A stretch of 61,678 bases of DNA, filler included, from Anaerolineae bacterium (GTDB lineage: Bacteria > Chloroflexota > Anaerolineae > Epilineales > Epilineaceae): the NCBI GenBank assembly GCA_029262755.1. It is 3 parts of 3 records of this genome, joined end to end, with 100 filler letters (N's around TTAATTAATTAA, not from the genome) between each part and the next. Parts side by side here need not be neighbours in the genome. Positions count along the whole stretch, not along the records: positions 1 to 26,306 come from JAJCYU010000218.1; positions 26,407 to 42,466 come from JAJCYU010000222.1; 1 more part is not named here. The stretch is one strand, 5' to 3'. The position numbers were made by a program. Below, piece by piece: positions 21,455-27,400 of this stretch. Numbering within the stretch: position 1 is the stretch's first letter; the number at the start of each line of letters is the position of its first letter.

Positions 21455-24400
21455 ACGGTACGCCGGGGGTGCCGGAACCGACGCGCACGCCGGGTGCGTG
21501 GCTGCCGATCGGACTGCGGGGTGTCGGCGGACGGTGACGCATGACGGGTGCCGGGGTTACAATTGCCCGCGTACGCCCCCGTAGCTCAGGGGATAGAGCA
21601 ACGGTTTCCTAAACCGTGTGTCGTAGGTTCGAGTCCTACCGGGGGTACACGTGATGACCCATCCCACATCGTTTGCGGTCTGCATCCGTAATGACGGCTA
21701 TCCGGCTGCGCTCGAGGTGCGAAAGCATTATCGCGTTCTCCCTGATGCAGATGCTGGAGATGCCGGGTTGATCCGGGTCATCGACGAATCGGGGGAGGAC
21801 TATCTCTACCCCACCGAGTTCTTCGTGTCGATCGAGTTACCCCGTACGATCACGGACGTGCTGGAGTCGGCCGCCTAGCGTGTTGACGGTCATGGCATCC
21901 TACAGCCTGTGACTCGCGCCTTCATCAGCTACGCTCACGCCGACGCCGCCTTCGCCACGCGCCTCGCCACCGCGTTGCCGGGGCTGGGCATCGATCCGTG
22001 GATCGACCGCGACGGGATTCACGGCGGCGCACGCTGGAGTTCGTCCATTCAGCAAGCATTGGACGACGCCGACGCGCTGATCCTCGTACTGACCCCGGCC
22101 GCCATGGCCTCGTCCAACGTCGAGGACGAGTGGCAGTACGCGCTCGATCGGGGCAAGCCCGTGCTGCCGGTGCTGCTGGAGCCGACCGACGTCCACTTCC
22201 AGCTCGGACGCATCCAGTACACCGACTTCCATGGCCAGCCCTTCGAAGCCGGGCTCGCGCAGCTGGCGGAGGGCGTGCGGCGAGCGTTGGAGGGCGTGCG
22301 CGCTGACAACGCAGCGAGCGGGGAGGCCGGGCAGGCTGGCGCGGCAGAAGAACACCGCACACGCGCCGGCCTTAGCGCCGCCCGCTCCATCGGCCCGCCT
22401 TCCGGCACCGTCACCTTCCTCTTCACTGACATCGAGGGCAGCACCGTGCGCTGGGAGCAGCATCCCGACGCCATGGGCGCCGCGCTCGAGCGCCACGACG
22501 CCTTGATGCGCGCCGCCGTAGCCGACCATGCCGGCCACGTTTTCAAGACCGTCGGCGATGCGTTCTGCGCCGTCTTCGCCCGTGCCGGTGACGCGCTCGC
22601 CGCCGCGATCGCCGCTCAGCGCGCCGTCGCGGCCCTTGACTGGTCGGCCATGGGCGACGGCTTCCCGCCCCTGGCGGTGCGCATGGCCATCCACACCGGC
22701 GAGGCAACCGAGCGCGACGGCGACTACTTCGGGCCGCCCGTCAACCGCGTGGCGCGGCTGGAGGCCGCCGGCCACGGCGGGCAGCTCCTGCTCTCGGCGC
22801 CGACCTATCACATCGTGCGCGACGCGCTCCCCGAAAGCTTCGCACTCCGCGACTGGGGAGAGCATCGGCTCAAGGACCTGCGCCACAGCGAGCATGTCTT
22901 CCAGGTGGAGGGGCCGGGCCTGCCGACCGTCGAGACCCCACCCAAGACAGCCGAGGCGCTCCACCCGCGGGACCGCGTGTACGTGGTCGACGTGGAGGCG
23001 GACGGTGATCCGGAGGCCCTGGCTTCGGCGGAGTCGGACAGCGGGCCACGTGCCGATCCCGACAGCCCGTGGTCGCGTCTTGAGGCCGCCGTCACCGCCG
23101 ACGCCGGCGAAGCGGTTACCCTGACGCCCGCAGAGGCCACGCAACTCGCCCGCCACAAGCCGATCGATTGGCGCGAGTACCGCCTGGGCCGCATCGCGGA
23201 GTGGAGCCAACCACGCTTCCGGCTCGACGGCCGCTTCGTCGGCCTGACCCTGCTCATCGACCAGGGCGAGGAGTCGGTCGCCGGACGCTGGGCGGCCAAC
23301 GAGGAGCGCTACGAGGACCTTGGCGCGCTGCTGGCGGAGACGAACGAGCCGGCCATCGTCGTTCTCGGTCCACCCGGCGGCGGCAAGTCCACGCTGCTGC
23401 GACGGCTCGAGCTGGACGCGGCCATCGCGGGTCTGCGCGGCGAGAGCGAGGTAGACTCACAAGGCCGTGTCACCTTCTTCATCTCGCTCAATACCTACAA
23501 GCCGGACGAGCCGAGCCAACCTGTACCTTCACCAACTACGTGGCTCTCCGAACGCTGGGCGGCTCGCTCACCCGAGCTCCGTCCCCTCGACACCCTCCTC
23601 GCCGAAGGCCGCGTCACCCTCCTGCTCGACGCGCTCAACGAGATGCCCGCCGCCTCGGAGTCGGACTTCCACGACCGGGTGCGCCTGTGGAAGGACTGGC
23701 TCGTGCGGCTCGTCCACGACCAGCCGGGCAACCGGGTCGTCTTCTCCTGCCGCTCGCTCGACTACAGCCAGCCGCTCTCGACGGCGGATCTCCGCGTGCC
23801 TCAGGTGCGCATCGAGAACCTGACCGACGACCAGGTCCGCGACTTCCTCGCGCTCTACAGCCCCGGACGCTGGCGCGAGATCTGGGCGGCGCTGGAGGGC
23901 AGTCCGCAGCTGGAGGTCCTGCGCAGCCCCTACTTCCTGGCGCTGCTCGTCGAGCAGGTCGAGGCCACGGGCGAGATGCCCACCGGCCGCGCGGCGCTCT
24001 TCACGGGCTTTGTGCGCCAAGCGCTGCGGCGCGAGATCGAGCGCGGCAACACGCTTTTCGAGCCGGGACCGCTACTGGCCGGCCGCGATCTCAAGCGCGT
24101 CGCCGGCTGGAAGTGGAAGACACCCTACGACCTGCCCGAGCGCGGCAGCCTGATCCCGAAGATGGCGACCCTCGCCCACGCGATGCAGACGGATCGGGCC
24201 GACGGCGAAGGCTCGTTGGTGCGCATCGACGTCGACGACGCGCTCGACCTCCTCGACGACCCCAACGACGAGGCGCTGCTGGCGGCCGGTGCGGCGATGG
24301 CGGTGCTGGACGAGGACCAGGCGGCCGAAGAGTTGATGTACATCCACCAGCTCGTGCAGGAGTACTTCGCGGCTCGGCAGCTGGCGCGGGAGCCGGATCC

Positions 24401-27400
24401 GGAGCTTGTTCGGACCGAGTGGCGGGCTTCGGAGATGCGCCCGAGCCTCGATGAAGTGATCGACCGTCTCGACACGGCCGATCCGCTGCCGGCTCTGCCC
24501 GGCACCGGCTGGGAGGAGACGGCGATCTTCGCTGCGGCGATGTCGGAGGACCCGACAGGCTTCTTGCGCAGTGTCATGGAGACGAATCTCGCGCTCGCCG
24601 GCCGTGCCGCCGCGCAGCCGGAGCTGCAGCCGCGCCTGCCGGACGACCTTCTCGACGAGCTGCGGTGGGCGCTCGCGGCGCGCAGCCGCGACACGTCCGC
24701 CGATCTACGCGACCGGATCGCTTGCGGTTATGCCCTCGGCGACCTGGGCGACCCACGCTTTGAGCGCCGCGTCGGTCCGCATGGCGCGTACCTACTCCCC
24801 CCGCTCGTCGTGATTCCCGCGGGGACGTACCCCATCGGGGATGACAAGCCGATCGTGAACCCCCACGGCACATGGACCGGACATGTACCGCGCCACGAGA
24901 TCGAGATCGCGGCCTTCGAGATCGGTCGGTTCCCCGTCACCAACGCGGAGTGGTCTTGCTTCCTGGACGCCGGCGGCTACGAGGACGACCGCTGGTGGGA
25001 TACCCAAGACGCACGTTCTTGGCGCCGCGGCGAGAACACGGCCGCGGGAATTCATGCCGGTGTGAAGGACTTCGTCGCTCGCTGTCGCGCGCACCCCGCG
25101 CTGATCGACGAGCTGCTGGCCGCCGGCTCGTGGGACGAGACCACGTACGAGCGCGGACAGCGCCGACTGGCCATGAGCGAAGCCGAGCTGGACGCCCACC
25201 TGCGCGAGCTATACCCAGGCGGGCGCCTGACCGAGCCGGCCTTTTGGCGCGATCGCCGCCTCAACCATCCGTCGCAGCCGGTGGTCGGCGTGTGCTGGTT
25301 CGAAGCGCGCGCCTACCTGCGCTGGCTCGCCGCGCAGTCAGGTCTGCCCTTCCGGTTGCCGTCCGAGGTTGAGTGGGAGTCCGCGGCACGGGGTGCGGCC
25401 GGCCGCCTCTACGCCTATGGCGACGAGTTCAACCATCTGGCGTGCAACGCCGCCGAGACACACATCCGGCAGACCACGCCGATTGGTGTCTTTCCGGACG
25501 GCGATTCACCGGAGGCGGTCACCGACCTCACCGGCAACGTCTTCGACTGGACATCGAGCGCCTTCGGGCAGAATACCGATTCGACCGAATACCCGTACCC
25601 CTACCTTCCCAGTGACGGTCGGGAGGAGCCGGACCTGCCTGCGACGTGCCTGCGCGTGTTGCGTGGTGGCTCGTGGTATGACGATCGATCGTGCACCCTG
25701 GCTGCCTACCGGGTCAGCGATCTACCCGATGATCGCGATCCTGACAGCGGCTTTCGGGTATGCGTTCGCCGCAGCGCCTCACCCCCGTCCTCCCCGGATC
25801 CTGCGTCCTGAGCTCCTGACTTCCGAAGCTCTAGTCTTCCGAGTCCCTCTGTTGCCGCGGAACGCCGCGACTGTCGAAGACCCCTCCGCCAACGGGTTGC
25901 CGATCTCCAACAGGTTCCGCGTCGGGGTCGTGCAGGTAAATCGAGCGCAGCGTGCCCGTCGCGCCGTCGCGTTCGCCCGGGCCACAGCTCCCGCCCCAGC
26001 CGGATCACTCAGGCCCCAGCCCGTCGAATAGGTCCGCTGCGTCGTAGATCTGCACGCGGCCGGACTCGACCTCCTCGCAAAGTCGTGGGTCGGCGTCGTC
26101 CACGTCGGCGTGGTCCCACGCCGCCTGAAGGATCGAGGCCAGGCCGGGCGACGCATCCTCCAGATAGGGATACTCGTCGAGCACGACCAGCACTCGCTCG
26201 CCTTCGACTCGCCGTGCCAGATAGCGCAAGAAGGATGGCCAGTCGCCGAAGCCCGAGCCCTCACGCAGGGCGTCGTCGACGAATGCCTCGCCGGCCACGT
26301 GACTGANNNNNNNNNNNNNNNNNNNNNNNNNNNNNNNNNNNNNNNNNNNNTTAATTAATTAANNNNNNNNNNNNNNNNNNNNNNNNNNNNNNNNNNNNNN
26401 NNNNNNCAGCGCTTCATCCGCGACTTCTTCGACGAACCGCAGATTCAAGAGGATCTGGCCGGTGGCGCGCTGCGCGTCGGCATGGTCTCCTTCAACAACC
26501 GCGGTCGCCGTTTGGTCAGCCTTACCGAGCAGGGCAAGCGCGCCGCGACGCGTGTCAGCCTATTGCGCGGTGGAGGCTTGACCCGCATCGACATCGGCCT
26601 GCGCACGGCAGAGCGCGTGCTGCAGGACCGCAACCGACGCTACGGCATCCTGCACGACGACGACCGCACCAAGGTCATCGTCGTGATCAGCGACGGCGGC
26701 TTCTGCGACCGCGACCTTCGGGCGCGCGTCCAGAAGGAGATCGAGATCGTCGGTCTCTTCGCGGGCCGCGGCCCCTACAAGCGCCGCATGCGCGACATCG
26801 TCACGGAGAACGAGTACCTGCTCGACCTCAACGCGCGGGCGCTCAAGGAGCTCATGTTCATCTACGGCAAGGACTTCCTCCGCGTCGATCCGGTGAACAT
26901 GGAGACCCTGACGCTCAAGGAGCAGCTGGCCGACACGATGGAGCTGGTCCCCGGATCGGTGTCCAACGGCGGTGTGGTCAACGGCTCGACCATCGAGTGG
27001 GCCTTTGCGCCGCCCGATGCATCCGTGACCGTCACCTACGAGGTCAAACCGCTCCAAGAGGGCTATCTGGACGTCACCGACGAATCAGACGCACTCTGGA
27101 CCGACAACAAGGCGCGCGACGGAAGCCAACCGTTCCCGGACGTCCGGTTGAGCGTAAATTACGATCCACCAACGCCGACGTCGCCACCACCGCCGACCCC
27201 GACGGACGTACCGCCGGATCCGCCGACCGCAACGCCTGAGGTCATCGTCCTCAAGCCCGCGTACCTGCCGGTCGCCTTCCGCGAGGAAGAGAAGCCGGAC
27301 ATCTGCGAACCAAGCCGGCAACGGGTGGATCTTGCCGTTGTGATCGATACGTCGATCTCGATGAGCGATGCTACCTCGCCGGGCGGGCCGCCCAAGATCG

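What a model noticed while it worked through the whole genome (the two positions that open the first line are those of the whole stretch)
21909..25811. Nine cyclase-NACHT-FGE-sulfatase NLR-like paralogues, four with an extra N-terminal TIR domain
The genome holds nine paralogues built on a class III nucleotidyl cyclase with NACHT NTPase and/or FGE-sulfatase (C-type-lectin-fold) parts, and four of them (g00310, g02051, g02085, g02561) carry a TIR domain in front of the cyclase; g02362 has TIR-cyclase on a TPR STAND. I read them as pattern-recognition receptors whose oligomerisation fires two nucleotide-signal generators at once (cNMP synthesis and TIR NAD+ cleavage), feeding the genome's many cNMP-binding effectors. 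New would be a dual-messenger NLR; the TIR-bearing form is rare outside this lineage.
Evidence so far: Domain maps with E-values in call 51 (e.g. g02051: TIR_2 5-119, Guanylate_cyc 165-333, NACHT 483-645, FGE-sulfatase 964-1048 and 1109-1284). Cyclase motifs FTDIEGST, KTVGDAF and NRVARLE are intact in g02051 (sequence in call 51). Of the 120 best database hits to residues 1-480, 8 (three of them this genome's own) have PF13676 (TIR_2) with cyclase and NACHT; most of the rest have cyclase-NACHT-FGE without TIR, named ones from Caldilineae, Ardenticatenia, Anaerolineae and one Haliangium. No template-repeat-like copies of the FGE-sulfatase ends (nothing between 82% and 99.5% identity), so no sign of a diversity-generating retroelement. 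The 2026 STAND survey shows FGE-sulfatase sensors but the w [...]
(Added by a program. Inside this text positions count along the whole contig: they may not be those of the stretch shown here. "Call 12" and the like, gene names such as g00115 and contig names such as C1 are that model's own, and its searches are not shown. The text may have been shortened before it was handed on; [...] marks where a part breaks off. The agent that wrote the report below was given it as the finding of a first reader that could run no searches.)

Follow-up and report, generated by a model that had tools for sequence, protein, structure and literature searches.

The report
TIR-cyclase-NACHT receptor with hypervariable sensor
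A filamentous-lineage (Chloroflexota) bacterium carries a family of large single-protein receptors resembling animal and plant NLR immune sensors, and a rare subset, including this gene, has two signalling enzymes (a TIR domain and a cyclic-AMP-type cyclase) in front of the same switch.

Summary
Window 21909-25811 (+) is one 1300-aa ORF: TIR_2, class III cyclase, NACHT, FGE-sulfatase-like domain. TIR Glu74, the six cyclase residues and Walker A/B are intact. The genome (84% complete MAG, Chloroflexota by DnaK hits) holds 11-15 related loci rather than nine, because many are cut at contig ends. Four are TIR-cyclase-NACHT-FGE, and one is TIR-cyclase on an NB-ARC/TPR STAND.

New here: the last ~26 residues of the sensor (1257-1282) are hypervariable. 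They are homologous to the variable region that diversity-generating retroelements rewrite in TIR-NACHT-FGE and other NACHT-FGE relatives (adenine-only mismatches 19/19, 18/18, 15/16). This genome and the cyclase-bearing branch show no template repeat or reverse transcriptase.

The parts are already catalogued: cNMP cyclase, TIR and FGS on bacterial NACHT proteins (Kibby preprint). The TIR+cyclase tandem is rare: 0 of 86 NACHT genes in reference-genome loci, 5 non-own of 120 protein hits.

Best reading is an NLR-like sensor that fires two enzymes on oligomerisation. That function is inferred, not shown. Verdict: a new variant of a known kind, of moderate interest.

The parts
21909..25811 (+). 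Whole gene: TIR - class III cyclase - NACHT - FGE/C-type-lectin-fold sensor, 1300 aa, GTG start
21921..22265 (+). TIR domain (residues 5-119). The putative catalytic Glu74 is at 22128-22130, in the helix after strand C
   Evidence: Pfam TIR_2 E 1.7e-27. E74 is invariant in 7 own TIRs and aligns with the Glu column of 6wt6, 9mud and 7uxr. The model puts it in helix 69-80
22266..22400 (+). Ala/Gly/Glu-rich linker, variable in length among copies; part has low model confidence
   Evidence: gapped columns in A1; pLDDT below 50 at residues 154-160
22401..22907 (+). Class III nucleotidyl cyclase domain (residues 165-333) with D174, K213, D217, D272, N279, R283
   Evidence: Pfam; best solved relative Ma1120 at E 1.2e-19; Foldseek TM 0.9 on Ma1120; residues
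23355..23843 (+). NACHT NTPase core (residues 483-645): Walker A GPPGGGKST 487-495, Walker B LLLDALNE 571-578
23844..24797 (+). Conserved NACHT-associated region between the NTPase and the sensor (residues 646-963), with no Pfam model
   Evidence: paralogue identity 44-78%; low entropy blocks
24798..25760 (+). FGE-sulfatase-like (C-type-lectin-fold) sensor domain (residues 964-1284)
   Evidence: Pfam E 1.7e-41; solved relatives ToxD, EgtB, FGE, PvdO
25029..25268 (+). Variable helical insert inside the FGE domain (residues 1041-1120), which splits the Pfam match in two
   Evidence: entropy 1.7-2.3; four confident helices in the model
25677..25754 (+). Hypervariable C-terminal patch after RGGSW (residues 1257-1282). 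It is homologous to the DGR variable region of relatives
11081..14449 (-). Second paralogue on the same contig: cyclase-NACHT-FGE without TIR, 1122 aa. Its cyclase specificity residues are changed (DTQGD, EGYVG)
21575..21648 (+). tRNA-Arg(CCT) 260 bp upstream of the gene (context only)

Best explanation
The gene encodes a single-chain STAND (NLR-like) receptor.

Sensor. Its C-terminal FGE/C-type-lectin-fold domain is a non-enzymatic ligand sensor. Its binding surface includes a hypervariable 26-residue patch (1257-1282), the same patch that diversity-generating retroelements rewrite in related NACHT-FGE receptors.

Switch and outputs (inferred). Ligand binding lets the NACHT NTPase exchange nucleotide and oligomerise. 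This brings the N-terminal domains together. Class III cyclase domains need a dimer to form active sites, and the Lys213/Asp272 pair predicts ATP as substrate and cAMP as product. TIR domains need TIR-TIR assemblies to cleave NAD+ through Glu74. One recognition event would therefore switch on two nucleotide-based outputs.

Repertoire. In this genome the receptor repertoire is hard-wired as 11-15 paralogues with different sensor patches, not generated by a retroelement.

Shown: domain order, catalytic residues, their conservation across the family, the hypervariable patch, true DGRs in sister branches, and recurrence of the TIR-cyclase pair on another STAND scaffold.

Inferred: ligand-induced oligomerisation, both enzyme activities, the identity of the products, and an anti-invader role.
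For: - Architecture and E-values.
- TIR Glu74 is invariant in 7 own TIRs and aligned to the Glu of three solved TIRs. PADLOC's best TIR hits are the Aga_TIR and SAVED_TIR models.
- The cyclase set DKDDNR is present in 111 of 117 family rows and in 8 of 9 TIR-bearing rows. Walker A Lys is present in 121 of 121 rows.
- The AF2 model of residues 1-346 has pLDDT 87.3, and its cyclase part superposes on Ma1120 with TM 0.9.
- Sensor variability: the highest entropy in folded parts is at 1041-1120 and 1257-1282. In the top 40 printed of 94 pairs that are at least 80% identical over cyclase-NACHT, the patch is mostly 19-58% identical, for example 95% against 46% for P0059/P0067.
- Relatives carry template repeats with adenine-only mismatches on the same patch: L228 19/19, L223 18/18, L251 15/16. 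Reverse transcriptases lie next to them, and L251 also has a type I restriction R subunit adjacent.
- The TIR-cyclase pair also sits on NB-ARC/TPR STANDs: C255 here, L017 in an Armatimonadota MAG, and P0168.
- All copies are stand-alone genes with unrelated neighbours, as expected for self-contained receptors.
- Kibby et al. list cNMP cyclases and TIR as N-terminal effectors and FGS as an 'antigen receptor type' sensor of bacterial NACHT proteins, and note many paralogues in multicellular bacteria (passages read).
Against: - There is no functional or expression data of any kind.
- There is no defence island around this gene or six other copies. Neighbours are sigma-70, DnaK, a Wzy-like protein, cytochrome c, an LVIVD propeller, two-component systems and ABC transporters.
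- Copy C223 keeps the TIR Glu but has E/R/A at three cyclase positions, so dual output is not obligatory.
- On the NACHT tree the TIR state needs at least 6 gains or losses among 9 TIR rows. The TIR is an easily swapped add-on rather than a co-evolved partner.
- 10 of the 12 cyclase-domain matches in the genome are these STAND fusions. Their cAMP may therefore be the cell's ordinary cAMP supply, which fits regulation as well as immunity.
- No cNMP-binding gene is conserved beside cyclase-class loci. Only 6 of 174 sources have one in the flanks, among them the two cyclase-class loci L197 and L203, plus L232.
- No adenine-specific template repeat was found in 0 of 17 cyclase-class sensor patches in relatives. 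The DGR link is by homology to sister branches only.
Confidence: 0.55

Rival explanations
1. These are housekeeping signalling receptors, not immune ones. The STAND-cyclase proteins are the organism's main cAMP sources. They sense endogenous or environmental cues through the FGE domain and feed CRP-type regulators, and the TIR acts as an interaction module.
For: 10 of 12 cyclase-domain matches in the genome are STAND fusions. The only classical one seen is a GAF-GAF-PAS-cyclase fragment. Most of the 10 cNMP-binding proteins are CRP-like regulators or metabolic fusions. Neighbourhoods are housekeeping. Cyclase-STAND-TPR fusions are very common in the representative library (most of the best 150 hits). 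From my own recollection, with no paper read here, mycobacterial cyclase-STAND regulators are of this kind.
Against: The sensor end is hypervariable even between near-identical proteins and is a DGR target in relatives, which is unusual for a metabolite sensor. TIR Glu74 is conserved in 9 of 9 TIR rows. The family is expanded to 11-15 copies with different sensor patches.
Confidence: 0.2
2. Only one of the two N-terminal enzymes is the real output. Either the TIR kills by NAD+ depletion and the cyclase merely supplies the dimer contact or is regulatory, or the cyclase is the output and the TIR only scaffolds assembly.
For: C223 keeps the TIR Glu but has a degenerate cyclase. Most of the family works without any TIR: 111 of 121 rows have no TIR residue at the E74 column. 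13 TIR-NACHT-FGE genes in relatives work without a cyclase. The TIR is gained or lost at least 6 times on the tree.
Against: 8 of 9 TIR-bearing rows keep both full catalytic sets. The same tandem has been kept on a second, unrelated STAND scaffold in at least three lineages or clusters.
Confidence: 0.15
3. The sensor is actively diversified by a retroelement that lies in the unassembled 16% of the genome or acts in trans.
For: The patch layout equals a DGR variable region, and own copies are rich in AAC/NNC codons there, most clearly C328 and C315f. Many paralogue contigs break at these genes, and the window gene lies 495 bp from a contig end. The assembly is 84.3% complete.
Against: There is no RVT_1 match and no template-like repeat anywhere in the assembly. 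In relatives, 0 of 17 cyclase-class patches have an adenine-specific repeat in the locus. A Caldilineae genome with at least four cyclase-class loci has no RT match. Own paralogues differ throughout, not only at the patch.
Confidence: 0.07

Closest known systems
Bacterial NACHT (bNACHT / NLR-related) proteins of the 'antigen receptor type' with FGS sensors (Kibby et al., bioRxiv 10.1101/2022.07.19.500537; passages read)
   Same: The tripartite layout of N-terminal enzymatic effector, NACHT and C-terminal FGS sensor. cNMP cyclases and TIR are both listed among effectors, and many paralogues occur in multicellular bacteria.
   Different: Two enzymatic effectors sit in tandem on one chain. No member with a cyclase or FGS domain was among the tested proteins that I could see. 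Their figure and Table S1 could not be read here, so I cannot exclude that a TIR+cNMP architecture is drawn there.
DGR-diversified STAND-CLec targets of multicellular bacteria (Dore et al., PNAS 2024, PMC10907252; passages read) and the FGS domains of Kaur et al., eLife 2020 (PMC7159879; passages read)
   Same: NACHT or nSTAND with a C-terminal FGE/CLec domain, some with an N-terminal TIR. The variable region lies at the very C-terminus. I confirmed such cassettes in relatives.
   Different: No RT or template repeat was found here or in the cyclase-bearing branch. Diversity is stored as paralogues. 'Cyclase' does not occur in the main text of the PNAS paper.
Pycsar (cyclase PycC plus a cNMP-activated effector, including TIR effectors)
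   Same: A class III-type cyclase is used in a defence setting, with a weak PADLOC PycC match (E 1.1e-5). TIR and cyclase occur in one pathway.
   Different: In Pycsar, as I recall it, the TIR is downstream of the cyclase through a cNMP-binding domain and is encoded by a neighbouring gene. Here both domains sit upstream on the sensor, with no cNMP-binding domain and no linked effector. The Lys/Asp pair predicts ATP, not CTP or UTP.
Avs / STAND pattern-recognition receptors (Nature 2026, PMC13581612; section 5 and passages read)
   Same: A single-chain STAND with an N-terminal effector and a large C-terminal sensor. That survey shows FGE-sulfatase-like sensors.
   Different: 'Cyclase' occurs 0 times in its main text and in the 7 supplementary files that could be searched. 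Its Supplementary Tables 1-5, which hold clade and effector lists, were too large to read here and may list this clade.
Mycobacterium avium Ma1120 and trypanosome GRESAG4 adenylyl cyclases (solved structures)
   Same: They are the best sequence and fold matches of the cyclase domain, with the same metal, substrate and transition-state residues.
   Different: They are stand-alone or receptor-type cyclases with no STAND, TIR or FGE parts.

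Membership tests
STAND / bacterial NACHT (NLR-like) proteins | NACHT NTPase with Walker A and Walker B | tested here: met
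   Pfam NACHT 483-645 at E 1.5e-9, above the cut-off. GPPGGGKST 487-495 and LLLDALNE 571-578. Lys in 121/121 rows and Asp in 120/120 filled rows.
STAND / bacterial NACHT (NLR-like) proteins | Tripartite layout: N-terminal effector, central NTPase, C-terminal sensor | tested here: met
   TIR plus cyclase, then NACHT, then FGE-like domain.
STAND / bacterial NACHT (NLR-like) proteins | Ligand-induced oligomerisation and protection against phage | not testable with these tools
No RNA run is listed.
Class III nucleotidyl cyclases | Two metal-binding Asp, a substrate-specifying pair, and transition-state Asn and Arg | tested here: met
   D174, D217, K213/D272, N279, R283. The assignment of roles rests on alignment to Ma1120 and on recalled numbering of mycobacterial cyclases.
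Class III nucleotidyl cyclases | Cyclase homology fold | tested here: met
   Foldseek: Ma1120 5d0e_B at E 1.6e-14, TM 0.91 on the target.
Class III nucleotidyl cyclases | Active dimer, cNMP product | not tested
   No complex prediction or assay was run.
TIR NAD+-cleaving enzymes | TIR fold or family match | tested here: met
   TIR_2 at E 1.7e-27. PDB profile hits to SARM1, AbTir, TIR-STING and Cat1 at E 0.002-0.01.
TIR NAD+-cleaving enzymes | Catalytic Glu at the start of helix C | tested here: met
   E74 aligns with the Glu of 6wt6, 9mud and 7uxr in the printed alignments. That this column is the catalytic one is recalled knowledge. It is invariant in 7 own TIRs and in 9/9 family rows.
TIR NAD+-cleaving enzymes | NADase or cADPR-isomer synthase activity | not testable with these tools
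   This needs an enzyme assay.
DGR variable proteins (targets of diversity-generating retroelements) | C-type-lectin/FGE fold with a C-terminal variable region | tested here: met
   Hypervariable patch 1257-1282 on a conserved scaffold. Weak match of the last 47 aa to TvpA 2y3c at E 0.094. The homologous patch is a true VR in L223, L228 and L251.
DGR variable proteins (targets of diversity-generating retroelements) | Cognate template repeat with adenine-specific mismatches | tested here: not met
   No such repeat is in the assembly. In relatives, 0 of 17 cyclase-class patches have one.
DGR variable proteins (targets of diversity-generating retroelements) | Reverse transcriptase in the genome | tested here: not met
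   No PF00078 match. The genome is only 84.3% complete, so absence is not proven.
Pycsar | Cyclase with an adjacent cNMP-binding effector gene | tested here: not met
   No cNMP-binding gene lies on the contig. The PycC model match is weak, E 1.1e-5.
Formylglycine-generating enzymes / EgtB-type sulfoxide synthases | Catalytic Cys pair (FGE), or a DinB-domain iron site paired with the FGE-like domain (EgtB) | tested here: inconclusive
   All NCBIfam enzyme models score far below their cut-offs: EgtB 100 against 360, SenA 90 against 420. No DinB domain is present. The segment where FGE carries its Cys pair, by my recollection, is the hypervariable patch, which holds a single Cys. The closest matches of the C-terminal end include the non-catalytic SUMF2 and PorK.

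The most novel reading that the evidence does not exclude
One receptor, two nucleotide outputs. On sensing a foreign molecule, the oligomer makes cAMP and cleaves NAD+ at the same time.

In these Chloroflexota, cAMP would be largely an alarm messenger made by a germline-like repertoire of NLR-type receptors; 10 of the 12 cyclase-domain matches in the genome are STAND fusions. It would be read in trans by CRP-type regulators and by cNMP-gated patatin and MscS proteins. The TIR would add a faster metabolic or suicide arm.

The paralogue repertoire would be the frozen, inherited counterpart of the retroelement-driven diversification seen in sister branches.
Probability: 0.3. Interest if true: 0.75.

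Novelty: new variant of a known kind. Interest (0 to 1): 0.5.

Why it matters
Bacterial NLR-like proteins are usually described with one effector. A natural receptor that carries two different nucleotide-signalling enzymes on one switch would give a simple system for three questions: how a single oligomerisation event is split into a signal (cAMP) and a metabolic hit (NAD+ loss), whether cAMP can serve as an immune alarm, and why some lineages replace retroelement-driven receptor diversification by a fixed paralogue repertoire.

The family also offers matched natural controls. These are cyclase-only, TIR-only and TIR+cyclase forms, plus one copy with a decayed cyclase. If the function is ordinary regulation, the finding is a catalogue entry only.

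Tried and rejected
- Assembly chimera: rejected. An X1 contig bridges the TIR-cyclase junction with 0 differences, and independent homologues share the architecture.
- Defence-island context: Pfam on the greedy ORF sets around the window gene and six other copies found no consistent defence neighbours. PADLOC gave only domain-level hits.
- Active DGR here: no RT and no TR.
- TR scan in relatives: the first scan printed nothing because of over-strict blast settings. I repeated it with blastn-short.
- L187, the only cyclase-class locus with a repeat hit: the repeat is not adenine-specific (2 of 8 mismatches), so it is a paralogue piece.
- Conserved cNMP effector in cis: 6 of 174 sources only.
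- P0126 as a third TIR-cyclase scaffold: rejected. It is cyclase-cyclase-WD40.
- Fold search for the TIR part: the two-domain model returned only cyclases in the listed ranks, so TIR fold evidence rests on sequence profiles.
- Expression: no RNA holder is listed. The laid runs are contigs of DNA metagenomes, and they say nothing on expression or on variants in the sensor patch.
- STAND survey tables: the clade and effector tables of the 2026 survey could not be read because the files are too large. bioRxiv supplements are closed.
- Complex prediction: not used.

Full report
**What is there.**
The window is three contigs of a metagenome-assembled genome joined by N spacers: C218 = 1-26306, C222 = 26407-42466, C224 = 42567-61678. 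The genome is 5.06 Mb in 428 contigs, 84.3% complete and 0.72% contaminated. Its GC content is 57-74% along the window.

DnaK of the same contig is closest to Chloroflexota MAGs. Identity is 75% to a Chloroflexota bacterium and 66-67% to Promineifilaceae, Ardenticatenales and Anaerolineales.

The flagged ORF, 21909-25811 on the + strand, has a GTG start and 1300 residues.
- TIR_2 5-119 (E 1.7e-27)
- Guanylate_cyc 165-333 (1.3e-14)
- NACHT 483-645 (1.5e-9)
- FGE-sulfatase in two stretches ending at 1284 (1.7e-41)

NCBIfam matches enzyme models of the EgtB, SenA, OvoA and PvdO kind only far below their cut-offs. It also gives partial hits to an antiphage NACHT protein (EruA) and a Thoeris type III TIR. 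PADLOC gives only domain-level hits: Aga_TIR, SAVED_TIR, ThsB, and PycC at E 1.1e-5.

**Catalytic residues.**
In an alignment of the seven closely related TIR domains of this genome (66-87% identical to the window's), Glu74 in NVEDEWQYAL is invariant. In the profile search of solved structures it falls in the same column as the Glu of TIR-STING 6wt6 (kfEm), Cat1 9mud (wdEl) and the TIR protein 7uxr (eyEl). That this column is the catalytic one is my recollection of the TIR literature. The AF2 model (residues 1-346, pLDDT 87.3) puts Glu74 in the helix that follows strand C.

The cyclase has D174, K213, D217, D272, N279 and R283. Its best solved relative is the Mycobacterium avium adenylyl cyclase Ma1120 (E 1.2e-19; Foldseek TM 0.9 on the target). 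The Lys/Asp pair predicts ATP as substrate; this rule is recalled, not tested.

Walker A (GPPGGGKST 487-495) and Walker B (LLLDALNE 571-578) are intact.

Across 121 aligned family rows:
- the cyclase set DKDDNR is complete in 111 of 117 rows that have those columns;
- the Walker A Lys is present in 121 of 121;
- Glu74 is present in 9 of 9 TIR-bearing rows.

Among the TIR-bearing rows, 8 of 9 keep both enzyme sets. The exception is this genome's C223 copy, which has E, R and A at three cyclase positions (FTEIDGAS, RSIGD, GAYVG).

**Paralogues.**
BLAST of each domain against all ORFs of at least 250 aa in the genome, followed by Pfam, gives the following:
- Four TIR-cyclase-NACHT-FGE genes: the window gene, C277, C223, and C30 (cut by a contig end).
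- Three full cyclase-NACHT-FGE genes without TIR: C328, C60, and a second copy on the same contig at window 11081-14449 (-).
- Four N-terminal fragments at contig ends: C203, C2, C36, C255b.
- Four C-terminal fragments at contig ends: C177, C388, C74, C290 (the last).

This makes 11 to 15 loci, not nine. The N-terminal 250-363 residues of C2 and C255b match no Pfam family.

In addition there is one TIR-cyclase protein on an NB-ARC/TPR STAND (C255 6836-10906). There are also two TIR-STAND-TPR proteins without a cyclase (C8, C315), whose TIRs are 68% and 66% identical to the window's.

Of the 12 class III cyclase matches in the genome, 10 are these STAND fusions. The others are a GAF-GAF-PAS-cyclase fragment and one short piece.

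**Surroundings.**
The contig carries, in order, sigma-70, DnaK, a Wzy-like/TPR protein, the second paralogue, an HHH protein, a cytochrome c, an LVIVD propeller, and tRNA-Arg(CCT) at 21575-21648. The gene follows, and 495 bp later the contig ends inside a convergent P-loop-like gene.

Six other copies sit among two-component systems, vWA proteins, a PIN protein, Uma2, a beta-lactamase-family protein, CorA, TsaD and ABC transporters. There is no shared neighbour, no operon partner and no defence island. The units are self-contained.

Column entropy over the family is highest, within folded parts, in two places. One is a helical insert of the FGE domain (1041-1120). The other is the last stretch after the conserved RGGSW (1252-1256).

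That stretch has the layout RGGSW-x8-A-xx-R-x4-P-xx-R-x4-GFR: a fixed scaffold with hypervariable positions. In several own copies the variable codons are mostly AAC/NNC.

Of 94 protein pairs that are at least 80% identical over cyclase-NACHT-middle, the 40 most similar were printed. In these the 26-residue patch is mostly 19-58% identical, for example 95% against 46% for P0059/P0067. A few are exceptions at 73-100%.

I then fetched 77 loci of family members from species-representative genomes and looked for repeats of the patch. Three loci show template repeats that translate to Asn-rich versions of the patch, with mismatches falling only on template adenines:

| Locus | Source | Adenine mismatches |
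|---|---|---|
| L228 | Caldilineaceae MAG | 19 of 19 |
| L223 | Proteobacteria bacterium MAG | 18 of 18 |
| L251 | Anaerolinea sp. | 15 of 16 |

In L251 and L244 a reverse transcriptase lies beside the repeat. In L251 the receptor (TIR-NACHT-FGE, 1043 aa) lies next to a type I restriction R subunit.

So the window protein's residues 1257-1282 are the homologue of a true DGR variable region. The last 47 residues also match the Treponema variable protein TvpA weakly (E 0.094).

The cyclase-bearing branch, however, shows no such cassette:
- 0 of 17 cyclase-class patches have an adenine-specific repeat in the locus, against 3 of 11 TIR-class and 7 of 51 other. A few rows in that count are the templates themselves, and L251 was scored 'other' because its TIR fell under the BLAST threshold.
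- The only repeat in a cyclase-class locus (L187) is not adenine-specific (2 of 8).
- Two of five genomes holding such loci have no RT match at all, including a Caldilineae MAG with at least four loci.
- This genome has neither RT nor template.

I read the paralogue set as a hard-wired repertoire. Why the patch still diverges so fast between near-identical cyclase-class proteins is unexplained. Possible causes are trans-acting elements, recombination of sensor ends, or selection.

**How rare is the tandem?**
Of the 120 best hits to residues 1-480, 8 carry TIR_2 + cyclase + NACHT, three of them own, and one more own protein is the TPR form. Pfam rescans confirm the five foreign ones.
- Among 86 NACHT genes in the 77 reference-genome loci, 20 (+1 truncated) are cyclase-NACHT-FGE, 13 are TIR-NACHT-FGE, 47 have another N-terminus, and none has both.
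- In a scan with the first 480 residues, one of the 80 kept loci matched TIR and cyclase together: L017, an Armatimonadota MAG with TIR-cyclase-NB-ARC-TPR.
- In the 50%-identity representative library, I rescanned with Pfam the 19 of the best 150 hits to residues 1-346 that looked like candidates. Two have the tandem: P0122, a fragment of this family, and P0168, TIR-cyclase-nSTAND1/NB-ARC. P0126 is cyclase-cyclase-WD40.

The tandem therefore looks like a hybrid of two common forms, and it exists on two STAND scaffolds.

On a NACHT-region tree of 120 rows, the 9 TIR rows need at least 6 gains or losses. The own TIR copies are not each other's sisters (quick search, SH-aLRT only; P0117 was dropped for gaps and P0025 was left out as a different NTPase). 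Some 'losses' may be miscalled starts, which I could not check without DNA.

**Downstream readers.**
The genome has 13 cNMP-binding domain matches. The 10 proteins scanned are:
- a clear CRP-type regulator (C64), two tandem-domain proteins with weak Crp-like HTH matches (C359), and a bare cNMP-binding protein (C105);
- fusions to NDH2, an aldehyde dehydrogenase, a methyltransferase and a bPH domain;
- two effector-like proteins, cNMPx2-NTE-patatin (C155) and MscS-cNMP (C384).

None is linked to the receptors, and only 6 of 174 examined loci have a cNMP-binding gene in the flanks.

**Mechanism.**
The best-supported reading (confidence 0.55) runs as follows. The FGE-fold domain binds a ligand with its variable patch. 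The NACHT switch oligomerises. Induced proximity then forms cyclase dimers and TIR assemblies, giving cAMP synthesis and NAD+ cleavage.

Only the anatomy, residue conservation, sensor variability and relatives' DGRs are shown. Activation and products are inferred from what is established for STAND proteins, class III cyclases and TIR enzymes.

Three observations count against obligatory coupling: the decayed cyclase of C223, the free gain and loss of the TIR, and the abundance of single-effector forms. Two count against an immune role: the housekeeping neighbourhoods, and the fact that these proteins are nearly the only cyclases in the genome.

**Known or new.**
I read passages of four papers.
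- Kibby et al. (bioRxiv 2022) list cNMP cyclases and TIR among N-terminal effectors of bacterial NACHT proteins and FGS as an 'antigen receptor type' sensor. They also link many paralogues to multicellularity.
- Kaur et al. 2020 describe cNMP cyclase and TIR effectors, and DGR-linked FGS domains, in related conflict systems.
- Dore et al. 2024 describe DGR targets with NACHT or nSTAND plus CLec and sometimes TIR, including in filamentous Chloroflexi. 'Cyclase' does not occur in their main text.
- The 2026 STAND survey shows FGE-sulfatase sensors. 'Cyclase' occurs neither in its main text nor in the seven supplementary files that could be searched. Its clade and effector tables were too large to read.

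Full-text searches for FGE-sulfatase+NACHT+TIR, bNACHT+cyclase, adenylate cyclase+STAND+TIR+formylglycine and TIR domain+adenylate cyclase+NLR+anti-phage terms brought up no paper whose listing describes a TIR-cyclase tandem on a STAND. Of the papers these searches returned, I opened only the four named above. Unread figures and tables may still show it.

**Verdict.**
The finding is a new variant of a known kind, with interest 0.5.

Noticed in passing
window 26307-26406 and 42467-42566: The window is not one piece of DNA. Three contigs (C218, C222, C224) are joined by N runs around a ttaattaattaa spacer, so nothing beyond 26306 is a neighbour of the gene.
   Followed up: yes
window 21575-21648: tRNA-Arg(CCT) lies 260 bp upstream of the gene. 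Its stretch has very high depth in both laid metagenome runs, as expected of a conserved tRNA. Whether the gene sits at a tRNA-linked insertion site cannot be told, because the contig ends 495 bp after the gene.
   Followed up: partly
window 11081-14449 (-): The second paralogue on the same contig has Asp and Gly where the family has the substrate-specifying Lys and Asp (DTQGD, EGYVG), and it is the longest branch on the tree. It is either an altered-specificity or an inactive cyclase.
   Followed up: partly
whole genome (G000): 10 of the 12 class III cyclase-domain matches in the genome are fused to STAND NTPases. The only classical sensory cyclase seen is a GAF-GAF-PAS-cyclase fragment on C373.
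   Followed up: partly
L244:184-4389 (Anaerolineae MAG): A TIR-NACHT-FGE relative carries a DUF559/REase-like endonuclease domain inside the insert of its FGE domain (residues 1143-1249). It is followed by a template repeat and a reverse transcriptase.
   Followed up: partly
L075:2353-3534 (Chloroflexota MAG): A minimal 394-aa TIR-FGE fusion without any NTPase. Similar short TIR...FGE arrangements appear in L059, L065, L084, L085, L086 and L095.
   Followed up: no
P0158, P0124, P0127, P0129, P0149 (representative library): Proteins with seven tandem TIR domains plus WD40 repeats (P0158), and proteins of 1400-2000 aa with four tandem cyclase domains.
   Followed up: no
window 3305-6103 (-) over 3437-5365 (+): The long ORF antisense to DnaK matches Pfam NAD-GH (E 1.2e-159). 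I take it for a shadow ORF of hsp70, as I recall this model is known to hit the strand opposite hsp70, and not a gene.
   Followed up: no
L010 (C36) 1131-2654 and 6529-7320: A cNMP-binding methyltransferase lies 4 kb from a cyclase-P-loop fragment that is cut by the contig end. It is the only case in this genome of a cNMP reader near a family member.
   Followed up: no
window 26031-26306 (-): The C-terminal end of a convergent gene is cut by the contig end. Its translation contains a VLVVLDEYPYL stretch that looks like a Walker B. It was not identified.
   Followed up: no
window 35391-42518 (+), contig C222: A 2375-aa ORF on the second contig of the window. It was not examined.
   Followed up: no
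L197 and L203 (Ardenticatenales and Anaerolineales MAGs): Two cyclase-NACHT-FGE loci have a cNMP-binding gene about 1.1 kb downstream on the opposite strand. It may be a local effector pairing, or the two may simply be orthologous loci.
   Followed up: no
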